From contig DFRJ01000002.1 of NCBI GenBank assembly GCA_002378195.1, positions 22,911-86,910 of the forward strand: DNA of 64,000 nucleotides, read 5' to 3'. This document shows, piece after piece, positions 1,348 through 30,515 of this stretch (the first letter of the stretch is position 1; each line of letters begins with the position of its first letter). The notes under the pieces were generated by a model. The model was not told the origin of the DNA and made no database searches. It saw only the letters and a list, made by a program, of their open reading frames with translations. Source of the DNA: Patescibacteria group bacterium UBA3466. Lineage in GTDB: Bacteria > Patescibacteriota > Minisyncoccia > Phycocordibacterales > UBA918. The position numbers and the translations under genes were made by a program.

Positions 1348-2904
1348 ATGGAGGTAGATAAGTCGCATTTGCTACCGTATGCTCAAAGAGCTGATTTCAA
1401 GGTCGCTCGGGCAAATGAACTTTCGGGGAAAGACCGGAGGTTTTTTCGCTTTCTAGAAATTGTGCCGGGTGTAGCGGCTTGGGGCACTATCGTTGGAATC
1501 ATCTTGGCTTCAATGTATGCACCATTTTATGCCGCATACTTCATTATTGCTTTCTCTATTTATTGGGTGCTCAAAACCTTCTTTTTGTCGGTGCATGTTC
1601 GCTACAACTGGAAGCGTCTGAAGCATCACATGGAGCTAGACTGGTCTCAGCTGGTCAAACGTTTTAAATATGAAGACAAGTATCACCTAGTTATTTTTCC
1701 TTTTTATAAAGAACCACGAGAGGTTTTAGAGGGTACTTTGAAGGGTCTCAAGGAAGCAAAGTATAATAAACAAAAACTAATTGTCGTATTGGCGGCTGAA
1801 GAGCGGGCAGGGGAAGAAGCTACTCAGTTGGCTAAAGAAATGGAGGAAAAATTTGGTGCTGATTTTGGACATTTTATCGTCACTGTTCATCCAGATGATA
1901 TTGCTGGTGAGATTGCTGGTAAGGGTTCAAATACCCACTACGCTTTGCATCAGGTAAAGCAGAGAGTGATTGATATTGAAAATATTCCGCATAAGGATAT
2001 TTTGGTGTCTATTTTTGATATTGATACGGTCATCTATCCCGACTACTTCAACTGTCTTGTTTGGCACTTCATGACTGCAGAAAATCCCTACAAAAGTGCG
2101 TTTCAGCCGGTGCCTCTCTTTACCAATAATCTCTGGGAAGCTACCGCCGTGTCGCGTGTGATGGCTATGTCCAGCACGTTTTGGCAAATGATTATGCAGG
2201 AACGCCCAGATAAGGCGGCTACGTTCTCTTCACACTCAGTGAGCTTTCAGGCTTTATATGAGATTGGATACGGCCAGCCAAATGTGGTTAGTGAAGATTC
2301 GCGGATCTATTGGAATTTGCTGGTGGCCAACAATGGTCAGTTTGATGTGGTGTCGCTATCCTACCCAATCGCTATGGATGCCACCACTGCTCCGACTTTT
2401 TGGGGGACGTTACAAAATATTTATCGCCAACACCGACGTTGGACATATGGTGTAGAAAACTGGTGTTACTTGATTTATCACTTCACTAAGAATAAAGCGA
2501 TTCCTCTCAGACGAAGATGGTCGATTGCTTTGTTGCAGGGTGAGGGTTACTGGTCTTTGGTAACCAACCCAATCATGTTGTTTATCCTAGGCTGGGCACC
2601 AATTTTTCTCGGTACTAGAGAGTTTCACGATACTGTTTTGTCTTACGAATTACCGATCATGGTGCGTAATCTCCTAATTGTTGCCATGGGTGGATTGGTG
2701 GTTTCGTCGGTTATTTCACTATCACTGACACCGCCTCGACCGGATGGGCATAGTCGGTTTCGCTATGTAGTAATGACTTTGCAGTGGATTATGGTACCAA
2801 TAACCATGATTGTATTTAGTGCTATTCCTGGCTTAGATGCTCAAACTAGGTTAATGTTTGGTAAATACATGGGATTTTGGGTGACACCAAAACGTGAACG
2901 ATAA
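1348..2904 (+). CDS. Processive family-2 glycosyltransferase (cellulose/chitin/hyaluronan-synthase-like), integral membrane
   Basis: N-terminal TM helices, a DxD-like FDIDTV, a TED-like region, and the Q(Q/R)xRW motif QHRRWTYG followed by further TM helices. This is the architecture of processive beta-glycan synthases. Confidence 0.8.
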   Translation: MEVDKSHLLPYAQRADFKVARANELSGKDRRFFRFLEIVPGVAAWGTIVGIILASMYAPFYAAYFIIAFSIYWVLKTFFLSVHVRYNWKRLKHHMELDWSQLVKRFKYEDKYHLVIFPFYKEPREVLEGTLKGLKEAKYNKQKLIVVLAAEERAGEEATQLAKEMEEKFGADFGHFIVTVHPDDIAGEIAGKGSNTHYALHQVKQRVIDIENIPHKDILVSIFDIDTVIYPDYFNCLVWHFMTAENPYKSAFQPVPLFTNNLWEATAVSRVMAMSSTFWQMIMQERPDKAATFSSHSVSFQALYEIGYGQPNVVSEDSRIYWNLLVANNGQFDVVSLSYPIAMDATTAPTFWGTLQNIYRQHRRWTYGVENWCYLIYHFTKNKAIPLRRRWSIALLQGEGYWSLVTNPIMLFILGWAPIFLGTREFHDTVLSYELPIMVRNLLIVAMGGLVVSSVISLSLTPPRPDGHSRFRYVVMTLQWIMVPITMIVFSAIPGLDAQTRLMFGKYMGFWVTPKRER

Positions 2905-4054
2905 TATGGGAGAAGAACCGCAAATTGAACTGCTGTCTCAGCGTCGAAGAAAATTATTATTCCTGTCACTGGTGGCGGTATTTTTGGTGGCGCTGCCCTC
3001 AATGATTTTTTACACCACTGGATATCGCCTTAGTTTTGAGAACGACGCCACTTCTATTGTGACCACTGGTGGAATGTACGTGACGACCGATAATCTAGAA
3101 GTAGATGTTTATTTGGATGAGGAGTTGGTAGAGAGTCCGCGTTTGTTTCAGTCGGCTTATTACCTACAAAGAGTGGAGGAGGGGAAACATCGGGTGGTGG
3201 TACAGAGGTCAGATTTGCAGACTTGGGTAAAAGATTTGCCGGTCGATCCTCGTATCGTGACTGAAGCTGCGGCTTTTAATATGCCACTTCTGCCGCACGT
3301 GCGACCGATTACGGAGTTTGTAACGGAAGAAGATGTTCCAGTCTTTGTTGGAGTAGCTAGTGGAACTGATATGTTTCCGCTGGCTACCTCCACCATACCG
3401 TTTGTGGCGACTTCGACTACGGCCACCTCGACATTTGCTCTAAACGAAGAGTTTATTTTTGTGGAGAGTTTGTTTAGCACCACTTCTTCATCGACTCAAT
3501 CAGTGTTTGAAAGAATGCTGGAAGAGGTAGAAAGATTCCGCTTTGCTACCACCACAGTGGCCACTGCCACTGAAGTAGTTGAAGAGAAGGTAGAATCTGG
3601 TGATCTACAATTGGTTGAACACGATCTAGATATTTACGCAGTTTGGAATGGGGAAGATAAAAACATTCCGTATTATTTCTGTATATCAAGTCAGGCGGGA
3701 AGTACCACCGCTGAGCGCTATGGAGAACACGTGGCCGTAGCTTTTGAAGAGCAGGCGCTATCTACTACTACAACAATCATCATTGATTCAGATCGATTCT
3801 GCCGGAGAGAAATTAAGTTGGACAGGTTACGACAGGACGTATTTTTCTACGATTTCTTTCCGATCAATTCAGACTTGGTCTTACTGCAACTGGAGGACGG
3901 ACTTTACGTGACCGAGATAGATGACCGTGCGTGGCAAAATACACAGCTGCTATACCCGGGCGATAGTATTAGAGTGGTGACGGAAAATAATTCTATCTTT
4001 ATTAAGGAGGATGATAGATACTTTGAGCTGATCACCCAAATTGAACCAGAATAA
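2894..4054 (+). CDS. Hypothetical single-pass membrane protein with Ser/Thr-rich segments, translationally coupled to the GT2 synthase
   Basis: Start overlaps the GT2 stop by 11 nt. One N-terminal TM (LLFLSLVAVFLVALPSMIFY), then a soluble domain and ATSTT low-complexity stretches. No recognised catalytic motif. Confidence 0.55.
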   Translation: MNDNMGEEPQIELLSQRRRKLLFLSLVAVFLVALPSMIFYTTGYRLSFENDATSIVTTGGMYVTTDNLEVDVYLDEELVESPRLFQSAYYLQRVEEGKHRVVVQRSDLQTWVKDLPVDPRIVTEAAAFNMPLLPHVRPITEFVTEEDVPVFVGVASGTDMFPLATSTIPFVATSTTATSTFALNEEFIFVESLFSTTSSSTQSVFERMLEEVERFRFATTTVATATEVVEEKVESGDLQLVEHDLDIYAVWNGEDKNIPYYFCISSQAGSTTAERYGEHVAVAFEEQALSTTTTIIIDSDRFCRREIKLDRLRQDVFFYDFFPINSDLVLLQLEDGLYVTEIDDRAWQNTQLLYPGDSIRVVTENNSIFIKEDDRYFELITQIEPE

Positions 4055-8993: not shown

Positions 8994-10016
8994 TTAGTTG
9001 GAAAACAGAACTGTTTCAACAAAGCCATCATTTAGGCTATTTTCATCGGTGTTTTCGTAGGTCATTACTTGGAAGGCGTGTGATCCGGTGTTGGGGGTAG
9101 GGAATCCAACTGTAATCACGGCGCGCTCGCTTGGGCCTAGTGGGTCTTGTCCTCCTGATCGGTAGGTTTCTCCAGAAGGGAGCGTTACAGCGTAAGTCCA
9201 GACATTAGAAGTTTTGAGTCCCAAGTTCTTAACTGCAAACTGAATTGCGCCACTATCTCGTCTTTCAATTTGTCCGGGTACAAACACGTTTGAAATGATG
9301 TTTCCGCTAGCTATAAATTGAGTTGCAAGATCGGTTCGCTTTACCGCATCAATGATTGGAGTCTGGTATTCCGGTTCCTCAACCGATACTGCTGGAGTAG
9401 ATGGCTCTGGGTCAACTGCCACTTCTGGTTCTGGTGTGTCTTCAGTTTGTTCAGATTCTGGCTCAGTCTCCTCATCGTCGTGACTAATAGTACTGTTTAC
9501 TACAGTGTAAGATGAACCGCCTCGTCCATAAGTATGATTATTTTCAGTACCGATCAGTTCGATGTCGTAGTAGATGTTTTCGTAACGATTCTTTTCTGAA
9601 GAGGTTTCCAGGGTTAGATTGGTAGTATTTCCAATATCATAACTAGTGTCGCATGATACTCCGCGGGCGTTACCATTGTTATCAATGATGTTTAGAGAAA
9701 CACCATCAGCACAGTCGTAAGAGAACATGTAGCTACCATCCACGTTGCTAGCATCCCAAGATAGGGAAGTGAATTCTCCAGCTGTAATGATGCTCTTGCT
9801 GCTAGCAATAATAATCTCCTCAGCCTCCATTTCTTCAGTTGGGACAGCTCGCTGGTTGATGCTCTCTGCTAGAGAAGCTAATGAGGAAAAAGCTCCGGGA
9901 ACGAAGCTTACTAGCTGTACAGATAGCCAAGCGATAGCGAAAATCATACTAATAAAAGCTATCACCGCGACTGGCTTAGAGAAGGTGTTGTCCTTCTTGT
10001 TTGATTCGTTACTCAT
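8994..10016 (-). CDS. Membrane-anchored surface protein carrying one Cys-bounded Ig-like repeat of the same family as the six repeats in 11071..13683, plus an acidic Pro/Glu linker
   Basis: N-terminal TM anchor (VAVIAFISMIFAIAWLSV). FTSLSWDASNVDGS...CDTSYD matches the TLSW/TLTW/TLNW repeat signature of the downstream giant protein. Acidic ETEPESEQTEDTPEPE linker. Confidence 0.6.
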   Translation of the reverse strand: MSNESNKKDNTFSKPVAVIAFISMIFAIAWLSVQLVSFVPGAFSSLASLAESINQRAVPTEEMEAEEIIIASSKSIITAGEFTSLSWDASNVDGSYMFSYDCADGVSLNIIDNNGNARGVSCDTSYDIGNTTNLTLETSSEKNRYENIYYDIELIGTENNHTYGRGGSSYTVVNSTISHDDEETEPESEQTEDTPEPEVAVDPEPSTPAVSVEEPEYQTPIIDAVKRTDLATQFIASGNIISNVFVPGQIERRDSGAIQFAVKNLGLKTSNVWTYAVTLPSGETYRSGGQDPLGPSERAVITVGFPTPNTGSHAFQVMTYENTDENSLNDGFVETVLFSN

Positions 10017-10156: not shown

Positions 10157-10897
10157 ATGAATAGCTTCGAAAAAATTTGGCAGCAGAAGTATACGTTTCT
10201 CGGAACGTTTTTTATCGTGTTTACTATCTCTTATTTGTTTTTGGTGGCGATTGATTTTCTTCCAGAGGAACCTCAGGCTATTACTGAGGTAGAAGAGGAG
10301 GTGGTCGAGATGGCTGAACCAGAGGAAGTGCCAGAAATGGTAGAGGATGAGGTGATTGAGCCTGATCCAGAGCCTGAAGTGGTTGAGGCAGTGGCTCCAG
10401 TAGCTGTTTCAGCACCTGTTTATACTGCACCAGAGCCAGTGGCGACTATTGATCAATCTGCTTTACCGCTAAAAATTACAATTGAGCGATTAGGTAAGAC
10501 GGTTCAGGTACTTAACCCGAATTCGCGATTAGTGAATGATTTAGATGCTGCTCTCCTTGATGGAGTGGTACGTCACCCAGATTCAGCCAATATGTTACAA
10601 GATGGAAATGTCTTTATTCTTGGCCACTCCAGCCACTTGCCGCGTGTTTTCAATAAAAATTTCCAAGCTTTTAATGGTATCGAGAGCTTGCAGTGGGGAG
10701 ATATTATTAGGGTTTATACCTCAAACGCTGTTTACGATTATCGCGTAGAAAAGGTTTATGAAGCTAAGGCCACCGAGCTGGTGGTGCCAATTGCTGGTAC
10801 TGGAAAGATGCTGACTTTGGCTACTTGCAACAACTTTGGCAGTATCGAAGATCGATTTATCGTGGAGTCAAAGCAGGTGAATGTGACACCTTTTTAA
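10157..10897 (+). CDS. Sortase-family transpeptidase (N-terminal TM anchor, acidic linker, catalytic His...TLxTC Cys)
   Basis: NVFILGHSS (His motif, cf. SrtA IAGHT) and LTLATCN (TLxTC catalytic Cys, cf. LTLITCD), plus a downstream R in the beta7-beta8 region. N-terminal TM segment FFIVFTISYLFLVAIDFL. Confidence 0.75.
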   Translation: MNSFEKIWQQKYTFLGTFFIVFTISYLFLVAIDFLPEEPQAITEVEEEVVEMAEPEEVPEMVEDEVIEPDPEPEVVEAVAPVAVSAPVYTAPEPVATIDQSALPLKITIERLGKTVQVLNPNSRLVNDLDAALLDGVVRHPDSANMLQDGNVFILGHSSHLPRVFNKNFQAFNGIESLQWGDIIRVYTSNAVYDYRVEKVYEAKATELVVPIAGTGKMLTLATCNNFGSIEDRFIVESKQVNVTPF

Positions 10898-11070
10898 GGG
10901 GTGGCTATTGACAAATTAGTATTTATACGATACAATATAAAAATAAGTAGGACTTTGTAGCAGGTCCACGTTCTCTATTAAAATATCGTTATTTCGTAGG
11001 CTTGATTACTCTTGCGTATAAAGGTGTAGGTGAGAGTATAAATCTTATGAATAATACTAAGTTAACAATT

Positions 11071-13683
11071 ATGAAAAAGACATTTAACACAATCGCTCAC
11101 ACGATGGTGATGTTGTCATTGATGCTTTCTGGTTTTGCTACCCCGATTACGGCAACAGCTCAAACTAGTTCAGAAGGAGGATCTCTTTCTACCGGAGGTT
11201 TGACTACCGGAGGATCAGTTTCTATTTCTTGTAGCATTTCAGCCAGTAGCGAAAATATCACTAGTGGCGGCGATGTTGAAATTACCTGGAATACTAGCGG
11301 TGCAGATAACGTCACTATTAATGGTGAGGTCGTTGGTGAGTCTGGTTCTAAGATGTATCTAAACATCACAGAAAATACCTCGTTTAATCTGGTGGCCACA
11401 GTTGATGGTGTGACTTGTGATAAGACGGTTACTGTTTACTGTGAAGCGCCCGAGTCTCCGGTAGGCGACTGTACCCTTACACCAGCTACCCAAACTATCA
11501 CTCGAGGTGAGAGCGCAACTCTAACCTGGACTTCAAACGGTGGTAGCGGAGTGGTATTCGACAATGGTCTTGGAAACCGAACTTCTGATGGTTCGCTTGA
11601 CGTTAACCCAACTGTCACCACCACCTACACCCTAACCGTTGATGAAGGTCTGGTAGTGTCTCCACACGTACCGAAAACTTGTTCAGCTGAGGTTGTAGTG
11701 GTTGATACTGTTGCACCGACTTGTGATTCATTCGTAGCTAGTCCAGATGTGATTAATACTGGAGCAACCACAACTCTAAGTTGGGAGACTACAAATGCCT
11801 CTCAAGTAACTATTAGTGGCGTAGGAACTTTTACTGATGTAGACAGTTCAACCGAGGTGGCACCTTTAGCGTCAACTGTATATACCATGACAGTGTTTGC
11901 AGCTGATGGCCAAACAGACAGCTGTACTACTCCGGTGGTTGTGTCAGAAACTCCGGTTCCAACTTGTGTATTTAATGCTTCACCAAACTCACTGGGTATT
12001 GGTGGGGGAGATGTCACTCTAAACTGGAGTGTAGAGAATGCCTCTGTAGTTGAAATCACCCCATCTGTTGGTGTGGTGTCACAACTAACAGGTTCGCAAG
12101 TGGTTAACGTGTCAGCGTCAACAGATTTCTCTTTGACTGCTACTAATGACGAAGGTGTTCAGGTAAGTTGTCCGGCGCCAGTCACTGTAGCTACTACAGA
12201 CGTACTAACTTGTTCAGATATCACTTTCACTGCTAGTGATTACTCAGTAGATCGAGGCGATAATGTAACTCTAAACTGGGATGCTAGTGCTGCTGATTCA
12301 GTATTTATTAGTGAGATTGACGCAACTGTATTAGTTGGTTCTGAAGCGGTAGAAATTACTGAAGACACTGATTTCGTGTTGACTGCAACTAAAGACGGTA
12401 ATCCGATCAGCTGTCCTATCACTGTCGAAGTCGAAACCGGCGGAGGTGGCGGCGGAGGAGGTTCTGCTTCACCACGTTGTGAACTAGATATTTCAGACTC
12501 ACGAATTTCTCTAGGTGAAGAAATCACTCTAAGTTGGGAAACTTCACGAGCTCGTGACATTACAATTATTGATGACGAAGGTGATGTGTTGTTTACAACC
12601 GACGACATGCTATCTGACGATAAGGAAGACTACCTAGATGGTGAAATTACTATCATTCCAACTCGAGATACTGAATTTACTCTAATTGCTGAACGTGGTT
12701 CACGAGACCGAGAATGTACAGTTGATGTTGAGGTTTCTGGTTCAGTGACTGTACTACAAACCCGAGATCAGCAACCACTAGTAGCTGGTATCTCACTTAG
12801 CCAAACTCCTTACACTGGTTTCGAAGCTGGTCCGTTTATGACAATGATGTTCTACCTACTACTAGTGGCGTGGGCATTGGCTCTAACTTACTTACTGGTC
12901 ATCCGAAACAAGACCGAGGTGGTATTAGAAGGAGGTCAGGTGAATATTACTGAAACTAATACTGATGCCATGACTAAGGCTAAGGAAGTGCGACCTGACG
13001 TGTTTGTGGAGTCAGTAACGCCACAAGTGTCTGGATCAGTAATGCCAACTAATCTACCAACTGGCGCACCAGTAATCGGTACTAATCCGCACGTAGCTGA
13101 TGATGCAACGGTGACTGATATTGAAAACCGTGCCCACGAACAGAATGCGTTATTGTCTAGTGACGCAATCCGACACTTTATTGGTACCACTGAAGGAGGT
13201 CTAGAACGGGTAGCGGCATTAGATGAAGTCATTGCTGCTGCAAAGTCTGAATACGCATTAGAAGATGGTTGGATTGTAATTAATGAGTCTCGAATGAAAG
13301 ATCTTTGTATTGTCTGTCAAAACAATGCAGCAAAGGCAGAAGAAGATCAGGAAGAATTCGTGCTAGCAACAGTTCCGCAAGGTTCTGGATCACTAGCGGA
13401 AGCAATTGTGACCGGGAACGTGGTGGCTGCTTATGACATGATCGGAAACCGACCAATGTTTGCTCTAGCTGATGCTGCAGCTGACCTTGATGCGGTATAC
13501 CGTAGCCGAAAGGGCGATCAGGTAGAGGTCTCAAGTCTTCTTCAAGAAGAAACTAAGAATCTATCAGGTGATCAGATCAAGAATATGATCGCAGCTCTGA
13601 CTGGAGCTATCGATGGTACTTACACCGACGAAGCTTCAGCGGTTAAGATGGCTATCATGAAGGCCGTAAAGGAATTAGGATAA
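11071..13683 (+). CDS. Large cell-surface protein: signal peptide, 6 Cys-bounded Ig-like repeats (~85-90 aa each), Gly8 linker, sorting-signal-like motif + TM + basic stop-transfer, then a ~270-aa cytoplasmic C-terminal domain
   Basis: Start chosen at the internal ATG (MKKTFNT...) giving a classic signal peptide; the ORF-track start at 11002 is upstream. Each repeat starts and ends with Cys and carries a T(L/V)(T/S/N)W.(T/S/V)..(N/S)A signature. GGGGGGGG lies at nt ~12436-12460. LSQTPYTG-FEAGPFMTMMFYLLLVAWALALTYLLV-IRNK sits at aa ~590-630 and the ORF continues for another 270 aa. Confidence 0.7.
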   Translation: MKKTFNTIAHTMVMLSLMLSGFATPITATAQTSSEGGSLSTGGLTTGGSVSISCSISASSENITSGGDVEITWNTSGADNVTINGEVVGESGSKMYLNITENTSFNLVATVDGVTCDKTVTVYCEAPESPVGDCTLTPATQTITRGESATLTWTSNGGSGVVFDNGLGNRTSDGSLDVNPTVTTTYTLTVDEGLVVSPHVPKTCSAEVVVVDTVAPTCDSFVASPDVINTGATTTLSWETTNASQVTISGVGTFTDVDSSTEVAPLASTVYTMTVFAADGQTDSCTTPVVVSETPVPTCVFNASPNSLGIGGGDVTLNWSVENASVVEITPSVGVVSQLTGSQVVNVSASTDFSLTATNDEGVQVSCPAPVTVATTDVLTCSDITFTASDYSVDRGDNVTLNWDASAADSVFISEIDATVLVGSEAVEITEDTDFVLTATKDGNPISCPITVEVETGGGGGGGGSASPRCELDISDSRISLGEEITLSWETSRARDITIIDDEGDVLFTTDDMLSDDKEDYLDGEITIIPTRDTEFTLIAERGSRDRECTVDVEVSGSVTVLQTRDQQPLVAGISLSQTPYTGFEAGPFMTMMFYLLLVAWALALTYLLVIRNKTEVVLEGGQVNITETNTDAMTKAKEVRPDVFVESVTPQVSGSVMPTNLPTGAPVIGTNPHVADDATVTDIENRAHEQNALLSSDAIRHFIGTTEGGLERVAALDEVIAAAKSEYALEDGWIVINESRMKDLCIVCQNNAAKAEEDQEEFVLATVPQGSGSLAEAIVTGNVVAAYDMIGNRPMFALADAAADLDAVYRSRKGDQVEVSSLLQEETKNLSGDQIKNMIAALTGAIDGTYTDEASAVKMAIMKAVKELG

Positions 13684-16033: not shown

Positions 16034-16573
16034 CTAGCTGATAGTCATGCTCGCACAACCCTTCACAGTTGTCGGTAAGTCGGCAGGTGATCTATACCAT
16101 TTATTGCGCAGATAAGTCACTGACTCATACAGCTGCCAGAAAGCATTTTTTTGTTTATTAACTTCTTTGCTGATCTTCCGAGCTTTCTCAATATGCTCTT
16201 CATTTGAATCAGGACCAAGGGAGGATTGCCAGTCCGTATTGAGCTCGAATTGTTGCTCCAGTTCCTGTGCGGCAGTTTTCAGACCAGTTTCCAGGAATCT
16301 TAAGCCTGCTTGGCGACTTTTCTCACTTTCGCCAAGAACAGCGGCGACAATTTTGTAGTGAGCCGCGGCTTCTCTGATGAAAAGCATCTCGATACTAACG
16401 CCAATGAAAAATATGCAGTAAAAGCTGCCAGATATTGACAGCAATAAAGAATCCATTCGAATTCTTGCCATATAAAACACTAAGACAGCTGACGGCACTA
16501 TTACAGCGCACAACCAGTAATTAAACAGACGGTTGTAGTCAAACACGCCCACGCTCGGTACAGGTATTTTCAT
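16034..16573 (-). CDS. Hypothetical membrane protein (two N-terminal TM helices, helical C-terminal domain)
   Basis: ORF of 179 aa with hydrophobic segments and no recognised motif. Confidence 0.45.
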   Translation of the reverse strand: MKIPVPSVGVFDYNRLFNYWLCAVIVPSAVLVFYMARIRMDSLLLSISGSFYCIFFIGVSIEMLFIREAAAHYKIVAAVLGESEKSRQAGLRFLETGLKTAAQELEQQFELNTDWQSSLGPDSNEEHIEKARKISKEVNKQKNAFWQLYESVTYLRNKWYRSPADLPTTVKGCASMTIS

Positions 16574-16686: not shown

Positions 16687-19600
16687 CTATTCTGGTCGAT
16701 CCGGTGGTGTTTCTAAATCTAGGGTTTGGGGATCAAGAGGTTTAATTTTATCGATCAGAATACTCGGCTCGTCATTGCGGAAATTAAGCTTACCTTTAAT
16801 TGCTACGCAAGTACCAGGCTCAAGTAAGTCTTTATAGGTGGTGTATGTTTCAGGGAAGGTGACAGTTTCTATACTGTCTTTTTGGTCTGATATTTTTACA
16901 AAGGCCATGCGGTCGCCTTTTTTGGTTAGTAGTTCTTTGACTATTTCTACTAGACCCGTGGTAACGACGGTCGTGCCTTTGTAGCCCTGCTTAACTTCGG
17001 CGATTTTAGGGCGTTTATCAGTTTCGGCTTGATGAGCATCAAGCGGATGTCCAGATACATACACTCCAAGTAGCTCTTTTTCCCAGAGTAATTTTTGGGT
17101 AGTGGTTGCTGGCTGTGAGGCTTCGAGAGTGAGACCGCTGACTTCTTCCATTCCGCCAAATAAAGAATCTTGATTGGATTCCTTGCCGGCTACATGCTCT
17201 TTATTGTAAGCCAGTAGGTTGTCTAGATTTGCAAACAAAACTCCTCTTTCGTCGAAGTTATCAAAAGCGCCAGTGGTAATCAGAGCTTCCATTGATTTTT
17301 TGTTTAGCCCACGGTCGTGGATCCGGCTCAAGAAATCCTGCATTGATGCAAAAGCGCCATTTGCTTTTCTTTCCGCAATAATGACATCGGCGATACCAGC
17401 GCCAAAGTTTTTGATAGTAGTGAGTCCAAAGCGGATAGTTTCTTTTCCTGGCACAACTGAAAAGTCAGCGAATGACTCGTTGATATCAGGTGGCAAAACG
17501 GTGATATTCATGCGCTCACACTCGTGAATAATTTCGGAGATTTTTTCTGTGTCACCAGAGTCAGCGGTCAGAACCGCAGACATGTATTCGACTGGATAGT
17601 TGGCCTTCATGAAGGCTGTTTGGTAGGCAACCCGTCCGTATGAGGCGGCATGAGCTTTGTTGAATCCGTAGGCTGCAAAAGGTTCAATTAGTTTCCAGAG
17701 CTCCTCAGCCTTTTGAGCAGTCATGCCATGTTCGATCAGACCGTTGAATAACTTGTCTTTTTCGGCAGCCATGATCTCTGGCACCTTTTTACCCATCGCT
17801 TTACGAAGCTTATCAGCCTCGAGCCACGAATAACCAGCCAGCTTAATGGAGATCATCATCACGTCATCTTGGTAAGTGATCACCCCGTAGGACACGTCAA
17901 GAATTTCTTCCATTCGTTCATCCATGTACGACACTAAAGCTGGATTGTGCTTACGTTCGATATAGGTCGGGATCATTTCCATTGGTCCTGGGCGATACAA
18001 AGCCACCATCGCGTTGATATCGTGAATAGTAGTCGGCTTTAGTTGCTTTAAGAAGGCTGTCATACCCGAACCGTTTAGCTGGAAAAGACCCATGGTTTCA
18101 CCGCGAGCCAACATGTCAAAAGTTTTTTGGTCGGCGAGATCGATATTTTCAATATCAATATCAACGTTGTGAATTTTTTTTACTCGCTTTACGGCATCAG
18201 CTAAGATAGCTAAGTTTTTGATGCCAAGGAAGTCAAACTTCAAAAGGCCGACTCCGTCTTCTCCAACGCTGTGCATTTCGTATTGAGTGATGTACTTTCC
18301 AGTTTTGGGGTCGGGCTGAATTGGTACGTACTCGTTTAGTGGTGCTGGAGCAATCACTACACCGGCGGCGTGCACTCCGAGGTGTCGAACCCGACCTTCA
18401 ATTTGTTTAGCTAGATCAATCACTTCACGGGACTCTGAATCTTTTTTGTACAACTCAGCCAGCTCGGGTTCAATATCGATGGCGCGGTCGATGGTCATTG
18501 GAAAACCTTGAGCCCCAAGCGGTATCAATTTAGCGATGCGGTCACCAGTAGCGTATGAATGTCCCAGAGCGCGAGCTACGTCACGTACAGCCGCGCGGGC
18601 CATCATGGTGCCAAAAGTGCCGATTTGCGCGACGTTATTTTCTCCGTATTTTTCCTTGGAGTATTCGATGATTTCATCGCGTCGGTTATCGGCAAAATCC
18701 ATGTCGATATCAGGCGCTGACGGACGCTCAGGATTGAGGAATCGTTCGAAGGGAAGTTTGTACTCAAGTGGATTTACGTTGGTAATTCCGAGTACGTAGG
18801 TGGTCAGTGATCCGGCTACCGAACCACGAATAGTGGTAAGGATGCCGCGCTCTCGAGCTTCGCGTAAAAGATCGCCTACCACTAAGAAGTATTTGGCGTA
18901 ACCTTTGGTCTTAATGATGTCGAGTTCGTAGTCGAGTCGCTCGGTAACGCTCTTGTCGTTGGTGTCTAGTCCGCGCCATTTCACACCTTCGTACGAGGTG
19001 ACTCGGAGTTCTTCGTCCGGGTCGCGGCCACTTTCAATTTCGTAATTGGGAAATACCCAGGCATCCATACCGAGAGTGATTTCGACATTACAAGCTTCGG
19101 CAATCTTTACTGTATTTGAAATTGCTTCAGGTACGTCTTTAAACCACTCTTTCATCTCCGCTTGAGTGGTAAACGAAAAGTTGTCACTGGCATCATGGTC
19201 AGCGGTGGTGTCTACGACACCACCGCTTTGAATCTTGATCATGGTTTCGCGGGCCAAGCGATCTTCGGGCTTTAGATAATAAATATCGTGAGCGGCTACG
19301 AGGGGAGTATTGGTTTCCTTGGCTAACTCTTTAATCTTTTCTTGATTTTCTTGGTGGTCGAATATTTCTGGGTGGTGCGATATTTCGAGGTAACAATTTT
19401 CGGCAAAGACACTTTTGTACCAATCAAGACGTTCAGCGGCCTGTTCTGGGTTAACGTCTTTTAGCGCTTGAGCTACTTCACCAGCAAAAGAGGGGATAAT
19501 ACAAAATAAATCATCCTTGTACTCTTTCAAAAGCTCTTCATCAATTCGCGGTTTGTAGTAAAAACCTTCGATATTTGAGCGGGTGACGAGCGAGATAAGG

Positions 19601-19920
19601 TTTTGGTAGCCCTTGAAGGTTTTGGCCAGTAAGACTAGGCGGGAGCGGGGTTTATCAATATTAACTTCCTTGTCGTGTCGTGTGCGAGGGGCCAAAAAAG
19701 CATCGAGGCCAATGATTGGTTTGATACCTTCGGCGGTACACGCTTTGTAAAAATCTATTGCACCATAGAGAGCACCAGCATCAGTGATAGCGAGAGCGTC
19801 TTGGCCATCGGCTTTGGCTGTTGCCGCGAGTTCTTTTGGGGTAGGCACAGCATTCAGGAGTGAATACATCGAGTGGGTGTGAAGATGGACGAATTCAGTC
19901 GTAAGCTTCGAATCGGACAT
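16687..19920 (-). CDS. dnaE: DNA polymerase III alpha subunit, compact form (1077 aa)
   Basis: N-terminal PHP domain (HLHTHSMYSLLNAV), polymerase palm/fingers region and C-terminal OB-fold region. Confidence 0.9.
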   Translation of the reverse strand: MSDSKLTTEFVHLHTHSMYSLLNAVPTPKELAATAKADGQDALAITDAGALYGAIDFYKACTAEGIKPIIGLDAFLAPRTRHDKEVNIDKPRSRLVLLAKTFKGYQNLISLVTRSNIEGFYYKPRIDEELLKEYKDDLFCIIPSFAGEVAQALKDVNPEQAAERLDWYKSVFAENCYLEISHHPEIFDHQENQEKIKELAKETNTPLVAAHDIYYLKPEDRLARETMIKIQSGGVVDTTADHDASDNFSFTTQAEMKEWFKDVPEAISNTVKIAEACNVEITLGMDAWVFPNYEIESGRDPDEELRVTSYEGVKWRGLDTNDKSVTERLDYELDIIKTKGYAKYFLVVGDLLREARERGILTTIRGSVAGSLTTYVLGITNVNPLEYKLPFERFLNPERPSAPDIDMDFADNRRDEIIEYSKEKYGENNVAQIGTFGTMMARAAVRDVARALGHSYATGDRIAKLIPLGAQGFPMTIDRAIDIEPELAELYKKDSESREVIDLAKQIEGRVRHLGVHAAGVVIAPAPLNEYVPIQPDPKTGKYITQYEMHSVGEDGVGLLKFDFLGIKNLAILADAVKRVKKIHNVDIDIENIDLADQKTFDMLARGETMGLFQLNGSGMTAFLKQLKPTTIHDINAMVALYRPGPMEMIPTYIERKHNPALVSYMDERMEEILDVSYGVITYQDDVMMISIKLAGYSWLEADKLRKAMGKKVPEIMAAEKDKLFNGLIEHGMTAQKAEELWKLIEPFAAYGFNKAHAASYGRVAYQTAFMKANYPVEYMSAVLTADSGDTEKISEIIHECERMNITVLPPDINESFADFSVVPGKETIRFGLTTIKNFGAGIADVIIAERKANGAFASMQDFLSRIHDRGLNKKSMEALITTGAFDNFDERGVLFANLDNLLAYNKEHVAGKESNQDSLFGGMEEVSGLTLEASQPATTTQKLLWEKELLGVYVSGHPLDAHQAETDKRPKIAEVKQGYKGTTVVTTGLVEIVKELLTKKGDRMAFVKISDQKDSIETVTFPETYTTYKDLLEPGTCVAIKGKLNFRNDEPSILIDKIKPLDPQTLDLETPPDRPE

Positions 19921-22088: not shown

Positions 22089-22991
22089 ATGGCAAATCGA
22101 CATTTATCGCGCAGCATTGTTCTTCAGTCACTTTTTGAGTGGGATTTAAACGCGCTCGAAAAAAAAGCAGTGGGTGAAGTTTTGGGACGTAACGTAGCAG
22201 AGTTTGCTCCCAACAAGACCGATATGCCATTTATGGAAAAACTCCTCGATGGAGTCATGGCAAAACAGCCAGAACTCGATCAAGTTATCGAAAAAGCCGC
22301 GCCTGATTGGCCAATCGATCGTATTTCTCCCGTCGATCGTAATATTTTACGCTTGGGTCTTTATGAGCTCTTGTTTGCTGACCGTAAAGAAGTACCAGCT
22401 AAAGTAGCTATCAATGAGGCGATTGAACTAGCTAAGCAGTTTGGTGGCGAAAACAGTAGCCGGTTTGTAAATGGTGTGCTGGGAGCGGTTTATAAAGAGA
22501 TTGGTGAGCCTGGTAAAGATGAGCAAGGTAAGAAGCGGAAGCGAGACATTCCATTTGAGGAGATGCCAATCGAAAGGCTGTCTGGAGCAGTGGTTTACGC
22601 TGAGCACGAAGGTCAAATTTACCTGGCTCTGGTACACGATATTTTCGGACACTGGACTCTTTCTAAGAGTAAAGTGCAAGAAGAAGAAACTGTCGAAGCT
22701 GGGGCAGTGCGAGCTCTAAACGAAGAAATCGGTCTACCAATTGAGATTGAGCAAGAAATCGGCGGTAATGAGTACGTGGCGTCACATCCTGAGTCAGGGA
22801 AAGTACGCAAGCAAGTGCACTACTTCTTGGCTAAAGCTCCTTATCAAGATATTCAACTAATTAAAAAAGGTGGCCTAGATGATGCCAAATGGTTTAAAGT
22901 GGCCGATATTCTGGAATTAAACTTCTACGAGGATATCTTACCGATTGTTACCAAGGCGGTCACTGTGCTAGTTGGAAGAGGAGGGAATTAG
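22089..22991 (+). CDS. nusB: NusB (transcription antitermination factor) fused in one ORF to a C-terminal NUDIX hydrolase domain
   Basis: aa 1-140 carry NusB (KVAINEAIELAKQFGGENSSRFVNGVLG). aa ~150-300 carry the Nudix fold with box SKSKVQEEETVEAGAVRALNEEIGL (Gx5Ex7REUxEExGU pattern, G1 replaced). There is no stop or frameshift between the two domains. Confidence 0.75.
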   Translation: MANRHLSRSIVLQSLFEWDLNALEKKAVGEVLGRNVAEFAPNKTDMPFMEKLLDGVMAKQPELDQVIEKAAPDWPIDRISPVDRNILRLGLYELLFADRKEVPAKVAINEAIELAKQFGGENSSRFVNGVLGAVYKEIGEPGKDEQGKKRKRDIPFEEMPIERLSGAVVYAEHEGQIYLALVHDIFGHWTLSKSKVQEEETVEAGAVRALNEEIGLPIEIEQEIGGNEYVASHPESGKVRKQVHYFLAKAPYQDIQLIKKGGLDDAKWFKVADILELNFYEDILPIVTKAVTVLVGRGGN

Positions 22992-25127: not shown

Positions 25128-25772
25128 ATGCAGAGGCAAAAGTTTCTTAAGGGATTTACTTTGGTAGAAGTGCTAGTGGTGATTGGTATCATCAGTATAA
25201 TTTTGTCGATCTTATTTTATGCCTTTGAAGATTCGCGAGATAATTCGAGTAACAGTTCCATTCGGGCCGAGTTGAAAGAAATCGAGTTGGCGATTGAGAC
25301 GTATCGATTGCAAAATGGAAGCTATCCAACAGCAAGTAATTTTGGAGTAACTGATTGTCGGTCTGCGAGCACCAGGGGCGGGGATTATGTTGTTATTGCT
25401 TCAAGTTATGTTTCTGGTTCGGGGGGCTCTCTGGTTGGCTGCCCTATAATCAGTGGTACGCAGCAGCCATATATTGATGGTTTAATACCTGGCTACTTGT
25501 CTGGTTTGCCAAATAGGGATGAGTCTCGTAATTCTGACTGTATATTCAGGTACATTGTGACTGGTGATCAATCCTCATACAAATTGATTGCCGAAAACTG
25601 TTTCGCTGGAGCAGCTGCAGCAGCCGACGGGGTGCAGCAGATAGACGAGTTTGCTCGCTGTCCCGAAAGCTGCGATGATCCTGGCGGAGTCCATCCCGCT
25701 GAATGTGAACCAAGTGAAGCTGATTTCTACAATTCCTTAGCTATCTACAGTGTTGGAGGAGCTTGCTATTAA
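25128..25772 (+). CDS. Type IV pilin-like protein 3
   Basis: KGFTLVEVLVVIGIISII, with the conserved ...YRL.NG.YP... segment shared by all three paralogs, and multiple Cys. Confidence 0.7.
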   Translation: MQRQKFLKGFTLVEVLVVIGIISIILSILFYAFEDSRDNSSNSSIRAELKEIELAIETYRLQNGSYPTASNFGVTDCRSASTRGGDYVVIASSYVSGSGGSLVGCPIISGTQQPYIDGLIPGYLSGLPNRDESRNSDCIFRYIVTGDQSSYKLIAENCFAGAAAAADGVQQIDEFARCPESCDDPGGVHPAECEPSEADFYNSLAIYSVGGACY

Positions 25773-25777
25773 AGATT

Positions 25778-29429: not shown

Positions 29430-30515
29430 TTGAGAAATATGGAAGGCAAAGTATACAAGTTTCCGTCGGGAGAAAGAGTTGGAAAGAATAAAGAAAACTC
29501 ATTCGAACTAAAGACTGATCGTAAGGCATTGCGAGCAGTTTTGGCATCATTTGGTATTGCGCTCATGCCGATGAAGGACAGTAATGACGCTGAGGCGAGT
29601 GTCCAGTCGGATCCTGAGCCAACACCAAACTTCGTCTCTGTAGAAAACGAACATAACGATACTCTACAAGAACGTTTGGCAAATGAATCAATGGAGGACA
29701 TGTTGGACCGTACCGTTATGAGCAATTTCAGAGAGCAGGGGGTGTCCACGGAAGAGATTGTTGATGAGTTTTCGAAACGGATCCAAGCATATGCGTCAGA
29801 GCGTAATGAGTGGGATATTAGCACCACAAAGAATCGCGCTCTTGAGACTCTCGAAGAGCTGGGCGGTCTCACCAAAATGGAGTACCTGAAAGAAAATATT
29901 AAGTTTGGTGAAAGTATGCCAGCGGATATACAGTCTGCCTTAGTAGATAAGATTGATGGGGTGCCGGCAGCGGAAACCAACTATGACGAAACAAAGGTGA
30001 GTCCAGACGGAGCGTTTGGTGCCCTCCAGACTATGCCAGAGACCTACGAAGCATTTGGCGGCGAAAAAGGAAAAGAGACTTCATGGGTGTCACAAGTAAC
30101 GGTGGCAGGTCGTATTTATACAAAGAAATACGAGGATTTGGCGGCGGGACTCGGTGAAGAAAGGTTGGCTGCTATTGAAAAGCAGTATCCTTCAAGGGAA
30201 TCATATGTAAATGACTTCTGGGTGCCGCTTTTGTTTGGGGCCTATCACGCAGGCGGTAGTCGTTGGAAGGATGGTGTAGAAGGTTACACTGTCAGTTTGC
30301 CGCAGGAAGATTGGGCGGTGGGTAAAGACTTCTTCCCAGCGGTGGCTGATTATAGCTTTGAGAGCAAGGAGGGTAGACTGGCTGAGTTTGGTCCTAAGTC
30401 TCGAGAGTATCCATTTAAGGTTTTGGCCTGGTCATATCTTCTCAATCAAGAAGCCGAAGAAGAATCAACCAGCTACGCTCAGGCAGATATTTCACCGACT
30501 GATAATAAAGGGTAG
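29430..30515 (+). CDS. Hypothetical protein (361 aa), no recognised motif
   Basis: Long ORF with a terminator directly downstream; the antisense ORF 29354..29980 was judged spurious. Confidence 0.45.
   Translation: MRNMEGKVYKFPSGERVGKNKENSFELKTDRKALRAVLASFGIALMPMKDSNDAEASVQSDPEPTPNFVSVENEHNDTLQERLANESMEDMLDRTVMSNFREQGVSTEEIVDEFSKRIQAYASERNEWDISTTKNRALETLEELGGLTKMEYLKENIKFGESMPADIQSALVDKIDGVPAAETNYDETKVSPDGAFGALQTMPETYEAFGGEKGKETSWVSQVTVAGRIYTKKYEDLAAGLGEERLAAIEKQYPSRESYVNDFWVPLLFGAYHAGGSRWKDGVEGYTVSLPQEDWAVGKDFFPAVADYSFESKEGRLAEFGPKSREYPFKVLAWSYLLNQEAEEESTSYAQADISPTDNKG

What the first reader, a model, noticed from the sequence alone, without database searches (positions are those of the whole stretch)
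12760..13683. Sorting-signal-like motif + TM + basic stop-transfer is not C-terminal and is followed by a 270-aa cytoplasmic domain
In the large surface protein, LSQTPYTG-FEAGP, a 22-aa hydrophobic helix and IRNK together form a canonical cell-wall sorting signal (motif, TM, positive charges). Instead of ending there, the ORF continues for ~270 residues with a globular, Ala-rich domain that would be cytoplasmic (ends ...MAIMKAVKELG). If the adjacent sortase cleaves at TPYT|G, the six-repeat ectodomain would be transferred to the wall and a free TM + cytoplasmic domain left behind. That would be an unusual processing-coupled, signalling-like architecture. Alternatively it is an uncleaved type I membrane protein.
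Basis: inference. Interest (0 to 1): 0.6.

Follow-up and report, generated by a model that had tools for sequence, protein, structure and literature searches.

The report
Sortase signal followed by cytoplasmic domain
A surface protein of an ultra-small (Patescibacteria) bacterium carries a complete sortase anchoring signal in the middle of the chain, followed by a conserved cytoplasmic domain shaped like part of a DNA clamp loader. The same arrangement sits next to its own sortase in about 80 related species, which no described sortase substrate does.

Summary
ORF 11002-13683 (893 aa) has a signal peptide, six Cys-bracketed Ig-like repeats, TPYTG (aa 602-606), FEAGP, one 23-aa TM helix, RNK, and then 256 more residues. 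A sortase gene (10157-10897) lies directly upstream.

Across 82 related Paceibacteria loci and the window:
- A 50-aa module is nearly invariant: DQQPLVAGISLxQVPYTGFEAGP, a TM helix with invariant F, Y, L, W, Y, then R/K.
- A catalytically intact sortase lies upstream in all 73 loci with enough flank.
- 71 loci are fused like the window.
- 8 loci, from at least 4 lineages, are split. The surface protein there ends in a canonical C-terminal sorting signal and the C-domain is a separate cytosolic gene.
- 4 loci (one clade) have lost the ectodomain and the PxT residues but keep GFxxGP-TM-C-domain, overlapping the sortase gene.

Best reading: a dedicated sortase substrate with an internal sorting signal. 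Cleavage would leave a membrane stub carrying a separable cytoplasmic module. Cleavage and the module's function are inferred, not shown. I rate it a new variant of a known kind.

The parts
8994..10016 (-). Conserved divergent neighbour ('tm340'): N-terminal TM anchor plus extracellular Ig-like/CARDB-type domains
   Evidence: A homolog lies divergently upstream of the sortase in nearly all loci with enough flank (tblastn). 148 homologs were found, and some carry Pfam PF07705 CARDB. The window copy has no Pfam hit.
10157..10897 (+). Membrane-anchored sortase (unclassified class)
   Evidence: Pfam PF04203, E 4e-18. All NCBIfam class models score far below cut-off; the best is class E at 36 bits against 160. 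H157, C224 (TLATC) and R233 are invariant in 73/73 orthologs. The TM anchor has residues conserved at 90% or more.
10908..10936 (+). Promoter-like site upstream of the surface-protein gene (TTGACA-17-TACAAT)
   Evidence: 11 of 12 consensus matches. This is a consensus match only.
11002..13683 (+). Whole ORF of the surface protein / sortase substrate (893 aa from TTG; probable start ATG 11047 or 11071)
   Evidence: No Pfam or NCBIfam family.
11071..11163 (+). Signal-peptide-like N-terminus MKKTFNTIAHTMVMLSLMLSGFATPITATAQ
   Evidence: Read from the sequence. Orthologs show an N-terminal hydrophobic segment. No dedicated predictor was run.
11230..12735 (+). Six Cys-bracketed Ig-like repeats. The sixth (aa 493-578) is the conserved membrane-proximal domain.
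   Evidence: Cys pairs. The sixth domain plus stalk is found in 79 loci.
12439..12462 (+). Oligo-glycine hinge (G8)
   Evidence: A G4-G11 run is present in 75/78 orthologs at a fixed 109-117 aa upstream of the PxTG motif.
12751..12804 (+). Conserved stalk VLQTRDQQPLVAGISLSQ
   Evidence: Positions -14 to -1 are strongly conserved (I-6 in 79/79, L-4 in 78/79, G-7 in 74/79).
12805..12819 (+). TPYTG, the sortase-type pentapeptide (family consensus VPYTG); predicted cut T605|G606
   Evidence: P, T and G are invariant in 79/79, Y in 78/79 and V-1 in 77/79. The cleavage itself is inferred.
12820..12903 (+). FEAGP spacer plus TM helix (aa 612-634) with an invariant F..Y..L..W..Y face
   Evidence: Hydropathy. 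F4, G7, F14, Y15, L18, W21 and Y27 are invariant.
12904..12912 (+). Basic stop-transfer residues R-N-K
   Evidence: R/K at +32 in 75/79 and at +33 in 65/79.
12913..13101 (+). Cytoplasmic linker with short conserved motifs RPDVF (nt 12991-13005) and PTNLPTG (nt 13045-13065)
   Evidence: PxNLP is present in 63/71 fused orthologs and an RPDVF-like motif in 33/71. The linker mostly has low pLDDT, except for the helix before RPDVF.
13102..13347 (+). C-domain sub-domain A: AAA+ lid-like (helix-strand-helix-helix-strand)
13384..13680 (+). C-domain sub-domain B: clamp-loader collar (domain III)-like six-helix bundle

Best explanation
This is a Paceibacteria-wide cassette of a sortase and its dedicated substrate, in which the sorting signal is internal.

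The precursor is a type I membrane protein. It has a Sec signal peptide, a variable number of Ig-like repeats, an oligo-Gly hinge, a conserved membrane-proximal domain and stalk, [V/T]PYTG-FEAGP, a TM helix with a conserved aromatic face, and R/K. These are followed in the cytoplasm by a linker with two short motifs and a roughly 190-aa domain with an AAA+ lid plus clamp-loader-collar fold and no ATPase.

Inferred mechanism:
- The adjacent membrane sortase recognises the extended motif and probably the TM helix.
- It cuts between T605 and G606 and transfers the ectodomain to the wall (lipid II or peptidoglycan).
- A stub, GFEAGP-TM-linker-C-domain, stays in the membrane.
- The cytoplasmic module is a separable accessory of this sorting system. 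It more likely organises or oligomerises, as collar domains do, than acts as an enzyme. It need not be covalently attached to the signal.

What is shown: the architecture, its conservation, the sortase linkage, the fused/split/ectodomain-less variants, and the predicted fold.

What is inferred: cleavage, wall attachment, and the role of the stub.
For: 1. The tripartite signal is present, with P, T and G invariant in 79 loci and 5 residues between the motif and the TM helix.
2. A sortase with an invariant H/C/R triad lies upstream on the same strand in 73/73 loci that have enough flank.
3. The same module is a canonical C-terminal sorting signal in split orthologs: L053/L057 end ...VPYTGFEAGP-TM-KKKVS*, and L052, L001, L066, L076, L077 and L080 have short tails. 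It is also C-terminal in paralogs in L078 (VPHTG, TM, RK, then 22 aa) and L063 (VPETG).
4. Splits arose in at least 4 lineages and at 3 different positions. The C-domain gene always lies directly downstream. This is a fusion/fission pattern that indicates a functional link rather than a need for covalent attachment.
5. The C-domain is cytoplasmic. It follows the basic residues, and stand-alone copies lack a signal peptide.
6. The fold is confidently predicted and specific.
7. The sortase TM anchor and the substrate TM helix both carry residues conserved at 90% or more, which fits specific recognition within the membrane.
8. An undecaprenyl-diphosphatase gene in the window indicates a lipid-carrier wall pathway.
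9. From my own knowledge, not found in the library: engineered hybrids with a sorting signal followed by a C-terminal passenger (Seb-Cws-BlaZ; Navarre & Schneewind 1994, Mazmanian 1999) are cleaved by S. aureus sortase.
Against: - No biochemical or proteomic evidence of cleavage exists.
- Conservation extends well beyond PxTG: 14 stalk residues, GFEAGP and the TM face. That could equally mark a non-cleaved structural or docking element.
- One clade (L002, L042, L046, L049 and about 10 further protein clusters) keeps an intact sortase overlapping a gene for a TM hairpin plus C-domain, with no PxT and no ectodomain. The sortase therefore has some role or substrate other than cutting this protein.
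- No LPXTG-anchor model matches.
- No second substrate was found in the 64-kb window.
- The clamp-loader resemblance rests on predicted structure only. hhalign probability against E. coli gamma is 0.5%, and there is no Pfam or PDB sequence hit.
Confidence: 0.55

Rival explanations
1. The protein is an uncleaved type I transmembrane protein. The VPYTGFEAGP-TM module is a conserved juxtamembrane element that docks to the sortase and/or the tm340 protein without being cut, as a pseudo-substrate or regulatory subunit. The protein physically links the Ig-repeat ectodomain to the cytoplasmic clamp-loader-like domain, as a receptor or envelope-to-cytoplasm tether.
For: - Conservation is far broader than a normal sorting signal: stalk, GFEAGP and invariant TM aromatics.
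- The TM plus C-domain persists next to an intact sortase in the clade that lost PxT and the ectodomain.
- The LPXTG-anchor HMM does not match.
Against: - P, T and G are strictly invariant wherever an ectodomain exists and are lost exactly where it is absent.
- The split orthologs and paralogs are ordinary C-terminal sorting signals, in which an outside-inside tether is impossible.
- The sortase catalytic triad is under strict conservation.
Confidence: 0.22
2. The signal is cleaved, but the C-domain acts only before cleavage. It would serve as an enlarged cytoplasmic retention, targeting or chaperone element that holds or positions the precursor for the sortase. The stub is afterwards degraded and has no function or signalling role of its own.
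For: - In canonical signals the charged tail serves retention; here a larger domain occupies that place.
- Split forms show the domain can work in trans on the tail.
- Linker motifs (PxNLP, RPDVF) could be docking sites.
Against: - The ectodomain-less clade keeps TM plus C-domain with nothing to retain.
- In L001 and L066 the surface protein's tail and the C-domain gene share no linker motifs.
Confidence: 0.13
3. The sortase polymerises, or attaches the ectodomain to another protein, rather than to peptidoglycan. The acceptor could be tm340 or an N-terminal oligo-Gly exposed at the conserved hinge, giving a pilus- or S-layer-like assembly.
For: - Dedicated sortase/substrate gene pairs are typical of pilus and single-target systems.
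- There is a conserved oligo-Gly hinge at a fixed distance.
- There is a conserved extracellular neighbour, tm340.
Against: - No pilin-type Lys motif was identified.
- The oligo-Gly is internal, and no protease is implicated.
- Nothing was tested directly.
Confidence: 0.07

Closest known systems
Gram-positive LPXTG cell-wall sorting signal with housekeeping sortase (e.g. S. aureus SrtA / protein A)
   Same: Signal peptide; xPxTG pentapeptide; short spacer; hydrophobic helix; basic residues; membrane-anchored Cys transpeptidase with an H/C/R triad.
   Different: - The signal is internal in 71 of 83 loci, followed by a cytoplasmic extension of about 200-330 aa counted from the motif.
- The motif is V/T-P-Y-T-G, with Y fixed.
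- Another roughly 40 residues (stalk, GFEAGP, TM face) are nearly invariant.
- NCBIfam LPXTG-anchor and class A-F sortase models are not met.
Dedicated sortase / single-target cassettes (SrtB-IsdC NPQTN; class GN 'marine' sortase TIGR03784 with its one target). Recalled from knowledge of NCBIfam and the Haft descriptions.
   Same: Sortase and substrate are encoded side by side, and the signal is extended and idiosyncratic.
   Different: Those targets end at the sorting signal, and no conserved cytoplasmic domain is attached or co-encoded. The window sortase scores only 16.5 bits against a cut-off of 158 for TIGR03784.
Engineered internal sorting signals (Seb-Cws-BlaZ and related hybrids, Schneewind laboratory). 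From my own knowledge; not retrievable in the library.
   Same: A sorting signal followed by a C-terminal cytoplasmic passenger. Sortase cuts, leaving TM plus passenger behind.
   Different: Those are artificial constructs. Here the arrangement is natural and conserved, and the passenger is a specific domain.
C-peptide sensing in Streptococcus gordonii: the remnant of the LPXTG signal left in the membrane is sensed by the two-component system SGO_1180, as summarised in PMC11326707.
   Same: The membrane remnant left by sortase processing carries information or function.
   Different: There the remnant is a bare peptide of about 30 aa sensed by a separate kinase. Here the remnant would itself carry a folded cytoplasmic domain of about 190 aa. 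No kinase belongs to the conserved cassette.
Clamp-loader subunits DnaX (tau/gamma), HolB (delta'), HolA (delta), RFC: domains II (lid) and III (collar)
   Different: - There is no AAA+ domain I.
- There is no significant sequence similarity: hhalign probability 0.5%. NCBIfam holA was hit by only 2 of 70 members, with a best E of 0.0046 and no member reaching a curated cut-off.
- The domain is membrane-tethered or co-encoded with a surface protein.

Membership tests
Sortase-dependent cell-wall sorting signal (LPXTG type) | N-terminal secretion signal | tested here: inconclusive
   MKKTFNTIAHTMVMLSLMLSGFATPITATAQ reads as a signal peptide, and orthologs show an N-terminal hydrophobic segment. 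The window's own segment did not pass my hydropathy threshold of 1.6 over 19 aa, and no signal-peptide predictor was available.
Sortase-dependent cell-wall sorting signal (LPXTG type) | xPxTG pentapeptide | tested here: met
   TPYTG at aa 602-606. P, T and G are invariant in 79/79 loci.
Sortase-dependent cell-wall sorting signal (LPXTG type) | Hydrophobic helix shortly after the motif, followed by basic residues | tested here: met
   A 5-aa spacer, a 23-aa helix, then R635/K637. R/K is at +32 in 75/79 loci.
Sortase-dependent cell-wall sorting signal (LPXTG type) | Signal lies at the extreme C-terminus of the protein | tested here: not met
   256 residues follow K637 in the window, and 71 of 83 loci are fused like this. 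The feature is met only in split orthologs (L053/L057 end KKKVS*) and in the L078 paralog.
Sortase-dependent cell-wall sorting signal (LPXTG type) | Matches the curated LPXTG-anchor model (NCBIfam) | tested here: not met
   No NCBIfam family at E <= 0.1 for the 893-aa protein.
Sortase-dependent cell-wall sorting signal (LPXTG type) | Cognate sortase encoded in the genome | tested here: met
   The adjacent ORF 10157-10897 is PF04203. A sortase lies upstream in 73/73 loci with enough flank.
Sortase-dependent cell-wall sorting signal (LPXTG type) | Cleavage between T and G and amide linkage to the wall | not testable with these tools
   Needs biochemistry or proteomics.
Sortase (PF04203), classes A-F | Sortase domain with catalytic His, Cys (TLxTC) and Arg | tested here: met
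   Pfam E 4e-18. H157, C224 and R233 are invariant in 73 orthologs.
Sortase (PF04203), classes A-F | Reaches the curated score of a named class | tested here: not met
   Best scores are class E 36 bits (cut-off 160), class D 28.7 (165), class C 17.2 (160) and class GN 16.5 (158). The class is left unassigned.
Clamp-loader subunit (DnaX / HolA / HolB / RFC) | AAA+ domain I (RecA-like, active or degenerate) | tested here: not met
   The region before the lid-like sub-domain is a low-confidence linker with no alpha/beta domain.
Clamp-loader subunit (DnaX / HolA / HolB / RFC) | Lid (domain II) followed by helical collar (domain III) | tested here: met
Clamp-loader subunit (DnaX / HolA / HolB / RFC) | Sequence-level membership (Pfam / NCBIfam / profile comparison) | tested here: not met
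   No Pfam family recurs. NCBIfam holA was hit by only 2/70 members at E >= 0.0046. hhalign against E. coli gamma gives probability 0.5%. The PDB profile search gave no relevant hit.
Sortase-remnant (C-peptide) signalling as in S. gordonii | Remnant retained in the membrane and sensed by an intramembrane histidine kinase | not tested
   No kinase is part of the conserved cassette tm340 / sortase / substrate. The rest of the genome could not be examined.

The most novel reading that the evidence does not exclude
Sortase cleavage at a natural internal sorting signal is a two-product maturation step. It wall-anchors the Ig-repeat ectodomain and at the same time creates a membrane stub whose clamp-loader-collar-like cytoplasmic domain then assembles, or reports surface-protein export to the cytoplasm. 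The report could conceivably go to AAA+ or replication machinery, given the fold.

On this reading, the ectodomain-less two-TM proteins are pre-made stubs. Their first helix ends in A-L-G immediately before xFGxGP, exactly in register with the sortase T|G cut. This would be a processing-coupled transmembrane device conserved across a whole class of ultra-small bacteria.
Probability: 0.27. Interest if true: 0.85.

Novelty: new variant of a known kind. Interest (0 to 1): 0.66.

Why it matters
As currently described, sortase substrates end at their sorting signal, and what stays in the membrane is treated as a disposable peptide. Here the signal is followed by, or co-encoded with, a conserved folded cytoplasmic domain.

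The arrangement is well populated. It occurs in at least 80 species-level genomes and in about 480-680 protein clusters at 50% identity.

If the signal is cleaved, this would be the first natural case in which sortase processing yields a functional transmembrane product. That would give an entry point into how cell-envelope assembly is wired to the cytoplasm in Patescibacteria. These organisms are uncultivated, their envelopes are poorly understood, and sortase is unusually common in them (PMC6744442).

The work also defines three new things:
- a sortase recognition motif, VPYTGFEAGP
- a new domain family with a clamp-loader lid-plus-collar fold outside replication
- a three-gene cassette (tm340, sortase, substrate) usable as a marker for this lineage

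Tried and rejected
- **Family searches:** Pfam and NCBIfam on the full protein and on 70 C-domain homologs gave no family.
- **Sequence searches for the C-domain:** A profile search of PDB sequences gave only chance-level hits. hhalign of the C-domain profile against E. coli gamma gave probability 0.5%. Homology to clamp loaders is therefore not claimed, only fold resemblance.
- **AlphaFold database search:** The afdb50 library was unavailable.
- **Other substrates in the window:** I searched for any other C-terminal motif + TM + basic signal, and for any other P[YFW][TS]G followed by a helix. None was found.
- **Assembly or frameshift artefact for the fused ORF:** Rejected, because 71 independent loci are fused.
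- **Sequencing frameshifts for the split forms:** Unlikely for L053/L057 and L076/L077/L080, where the same split appears in 2-3 species. A 21-nt gap and a start codon are seen in L053. It cannot be excluded for the singletons L052, L001 and L066.
- **C-domain as extracellular:** Rejected on topology and on the signal-less stand-alone copies.
- **C-domain as the genome's missing clamp-loader delta subunit:** Not supported. There is no domain I, and the genome's complement of clamp-loader genes could not be examined. None was among the 20 further window ORFs I scanned.
- **Genes between sortase and substrate in some loci:** These are small secreted or lipoprotein-like proteins without sorting signals, and they are not conserved.
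- **Literature:** Searches for VPYTG, for internal LPXTG, and for sortase in Patescibacteria or Parcubacteria returned nothing describing this architecture. A search for holA in CPR was uninformative.
Full report
**1. The observation**

The window carries the ORF 11002-13683 on the + strand, 893 aa counted from the first TTG. ATG codons at 11047 and 11071 follow a GGTGAG stretch and are more likely starts.

A Kyte-Doolittle scan finds a single strong hydrophobic peak at aa 609-636. The sequence around it reads ...VLQTRDQQPLVAGISLSQ-TPYTG-FEAGP-FMTMMFYLLLVAWALALTYLLVI-RNK-... TPYTG lies at nt 12805-12819 and the helix at nt 12835-12903.

After K637 there are 256 more residues, ending MAIMKAVKELG.

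The ectodomain contains six repeats, each bracketed by a Cys pair: 77/139, 157/227, 241/308, 322/390, 404/471 and 493/572.

The ORF immediately upstream (10157-10897) is a sortase (Pfam PF04203, E 4e-18). The only corrections are that the helix is 23 aa rather than 22 and that the tail is only mildly Ala-rich (13.6%).

**2. It is a conserved family, not a one-off**

A search with aa 584-893 found 134 proteins, all unnamed or 'hypothetical'. Nearly all those with a source name come from Patescibacteria (Kaiserbacteria, Paceibacteria, Pacebacteria).

An exhaustive profile search found 684 cluster representatives at E <= 1e-3 and 480 at E <= 1e-10. Most are 600-1900 aa long with the domain at the extreme C-terminus.

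A scan of one genome per species returned 106 encoding stretches, of which 80 loci were kept. Two more loci came from contig look-ups.

In every locus with enough upstream sequence (73 loci), tblastn finds a sortase upstream on the same strand. In nearly all of them a homolog of the window's 340-aa membrane protein (8994-10016, minus strand) lies divergently upstream of that.

The 10 loci without a sortase hit all break off at a contig end less than about 1.3 kb upstream of the surface-protein ORF.

In the window and in L001 and L002 the neighbourhood is gyrB | tm340 | sortase | substrate | thrS | dnaE, with rarA inserted before thrS in L002.

**3. The sorting-signal module**

Aligned on the Pro of the motif, 79 loci show the following:
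- P0, T2, G3, F4, G7, F14, Y15, L18, W21 and Y27 are invariant.
- V-1 is present in 77/79; the window is one of two with T.
- Y1 is present in 78/79.
- E5 is present in 73/79, A6 in 78/79 and P8 in 74/79.
- R/K is at +32 in 75/79 and at +33 in 65/79.
- The preceding stalk D-Q-Q-P-L-V-A-G-I-S-L is also strongly conserved.

The xPxTG core, the 5-residue spacer, the helix and the basic residues are exactly the anatomy of a cell-wall sorting signal. The degree of conservation, including one face of the helix, is much higher than in generic LPXTG signals.

The sortase's own TM anchor also carries positions conserved at 90% or more (F..FF....Y..L...D..PE). Its catalytic His, Cys and Arg are invariant in 73/73 orthologs.

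The sortase fits no curated class. Its best score is class E at 36 bits against a cut-off of 160.

**4. Three architectures that act as natural experiments**

Of 83 loci including the window:

- **Fused (71 loci).** These resemble the window. The tail counted from the motif is 203-332 aa, median 297.

- **Split (8 loci).**
  - In L053 and L057 the surface protein ends ...VPYTGFEAGPVLTFIFYGLLTLWALFVAYIVVIKKKVS*. This is a textbook C-terminal sorting signal. The C-domain gene starts 21 nt later.
  - In L052, L001 and L066 a short tail of 20-48 aa follows the basic residues.
  - In L076, L077 and L080 the tail runs through the linker and stops just before the folded domain.
  - In all 8 loci the C-domain is the next gene and has no signal peptide.
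  - By C-domain similarity the splits fall into at least four lineages whose nearest relatives are fused.

- **Ectodomain-less (4 loci).** In L002, L042, L046 and L049, which form one clade at 70-81% identity to each other, there is no ectodomain and no PxT.
  - The gene overlaps the end of the sortase gene by 7-76 nt.
  - It encodes a first hydrophobic helix, then ...ALG-xFGxGP, then a second helix with the same FY..LL....Y pattern, then the linker and C-domain.
  - The conserved membrane-proximal Ig domain is present in all 79 motif-bearing loci and absent from these four.

In addition, two loci carry a second surface protein with the same type of signal at a true C-terminus. L078 has VPHTG, an FYALLGLWSLFLAYLVVARK helix and 22 further aa. 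L063 has VPETG.

These comparisons show three things:
- The module functions as an ordinary C-terminal sorting signal in some proteins.
- The C-domain is functionally tied to it but need not be covalently attached.
- The helix plus C-domain is retained next to an intact sortase even when there is nothing left to anchor.

**5. The cytoplasmic part**

*Topology.* The domain follows the basic residues of a type I protein, and stand-alone copies lack a signal peptide. It is therefore cytoplasmic.

*Linker.* The linker is mostly low-confidence but contains two short conserved motifs. PxNLP is present in 63/71 fused orthologs and an RPDVF-like motif in 33/71. The helix preceding RPDVF is predicted with pLDDT of about 86.

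*Folded part.* It has no Pfam or NCBIfam family. AlphaFold2 with a 70-sequence alignment gives mean pLDDT 83.9 and two confident sub-domains.

*Whole-domain fold search.*
- The top 45 Foldseek hits are all clamp-loader subunits and align over about 200 columns.

*Conclusion on the fold.* The domain is an AAA+ lid followed by a clamp-loader collar, with no ATPase domain in front.

*Sequence-level support is absent or marginal.*
- hhalign against E. coli gamma gives probability 0.5%, although the short aligned stretch falls at the start of gamma domain III.
- Among weak NCBIfam hits, holA was the only family hit by more than one member (2 of 70, best E 0.0046), and RFC small subunit was hit once (E 0.01).

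I therefore claim fold resemblance, not membership.

**6. How it most likely works**

*Shown:* the anatomy, the conservation, the sortase linkage, the three architectures, and the predicted fold.

*Inferred:*
- The adjacent sortase recognises the extended motif, and probably the helix within the membrane.
- It cuts between T605 and G606 and joins the ectodomain to the wall precursor. An undecaprenyl-diphosphatase gene in the window is consistent with a lipid-carrier pathway.
- The membrane keeps GFEAGP-helix-linker-C-domain.

Engineered hybrids with a sorting signal followed by a passenger domain are processed by S. aureus sortase. This is my recollection of the Seb-Cws-BlaZ work, and I could not retrieve it in the library.

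Collar domains hold clamp-loader subunits together, and the domain also works as a separate protein. My best guess is therefore that it organises or clusters the signal and sortase at the cytoplasmic face, or marks completed sorting, rather than catalysing a reaction. I put 0.55 on the cleaved-substrate model as a whole and much less on any specific role of the C-domain.

**7. Rivals**

- **Uncleaved type I protein in which the motif is a docking element (0.22).** This is favoured by the unusually broad conservation and by the ectodomain-less clade. It is disfavoured by the strict invariance of P, T and G exactly where an ectodomain exists, and by the canonical C-terminal versions.
- **Cleaved, but the C-domain serves only before cleavage as a retention or targeting device (0.13).** This is disfavoured by the ectodomain-less clade.
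- **Polymerisation, or attachment to another protein (0.07).** Candidate acceptors are tm340 or an oligo-Gly end. It is prompted by a G4-G11 hinge at a fixed 109-117 aa before the motif in 75/78 orthologs. It is untested.

**8. Comparison with what is known, and novelty**

The closest known systems are:
- LPXTG signals with SrtA
- dedicated sortase/target gene pairs
- the artificial internal-signal hybrids
- the S. gordonii system, in which the peptide left by sortase is sensed by a two-component kinase (PMC11326707)

None has a natural, conserved folded domain behind the signal.

One paper notes that a sortase family is present in more than half of CPR genomes, without describing substrates (PMC6744442). 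Searches for the motif and for internal LPXTG signals found nothing relevant.

I rate this a new variant of a known kind. The machinery is familiar, the substrate architecture is unprecedented, and the domain family is new.

It is of clear interest to people working on sortases and on Patescibacteria envelopes. The decisive step, cleavage, remains to be shown.

Noticed in passing
window 12439-12462 (aa 480-487): An oligo-glycine run (G8 here, G4-G11 in 75/78 orthologs) sits at a fixed 109-117 aa upstream of the PxTG motif, just before the conserved last Ig-like domain. This is curious next to a sortase, because oligo-Gly N-termini are classic sortase nucleophiles. Here the run is internal.
   Followed up: partly
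window 8994-10016 (-): This 340-aa protein has an N-terminal TM anchor and two extracellular Ig-like/CARDB-type domains. It is transcribed divergently from the sortase in nearly every related locus. It has 148 homologs, some carrying PF07705 CARDB, and is probably a third member of the cassette.
   Followed up: partly
window 12991-13005 and 13045-13065: Two short conserved motifs lie in the otherwise disordered cytoplasmic linker: RPDVF and PxNLP(T)G...GY. The second looks superficially like LPxTG but lacks the x residue and lies in the cytoplasm.
   Followed up: partly
window 13306-13317 (C769, C772): A CxxC pair in the lid-like sub-domain is kept in a subset of homologs (e.g. P0014, P0018, P0036, P0045) and absent in others (P0022, P0040, P0068).
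   Followed up: no
window 10908-10936: A near-consensus sigma-70-type promoter (TTGACA-17-TACAAT, 11/12) lies between the sortase and the surface-protein gene. This suggests separate, strong transcription of the substrate.
   Followed up: no
L002 5977-6972; L042, L046, L049: In the ectodomain-less proteins the first helix ends ...A-L-G directly before xFGxGP. This is a signal-peptidase-like -3/-1 pattern at exactly the position where sortase would cut T|G in the fused proteins.
   Followed up: partly
L078 8996-10510: A paralogous surface protein lies downstream of the C-domain gene. It has about seven 'GCTDxEATNY...C.YPE' repeats, the same membrane-proximal domain, and a C-terminal VPHTG signal.
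   Followed up: partly
L053 6649-7971: The ortholog's ectodomain is largely replaced by long SYYSQS low-complexity repeats. This shows how freely the distal ectodomain varies while the last domain, stalk and signal stay fixed.
   Followed up: no
window 22089-22991: A single ORF combines NusB (PF01029, E 3e-37) and a NUDIX hydrolase domain (PF00293, E 3e-12).
   Followed up: no
L001 9020-12597 (-): The dnaE of that relative carries an intein with a LAGLIDADG endonuclease (PF14890, PF14528). The window's dnaE (16687-19920) is 1077 aa, close to the 1083-aa intein-free copy in L002.
   Followed up: no
window 16034-16573 (-), 2894-4054, 29430-30515, 61518-62924: These four ORFs of 179-468 aa have no NCBIfam hit. 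The first three also have no Pfam hit; the fourth was not scanned against Pfam. The 179-aa ORF lies between thrS and dnaE, where relatives also have a small unannotated ORF.
   Followed up: no
window 25763-28012: The SMC homolog is only 749 aa, against about 1180 in the NCBIfam model. Its head regions match, so the coiled coil is shortened.
   Followed up: no
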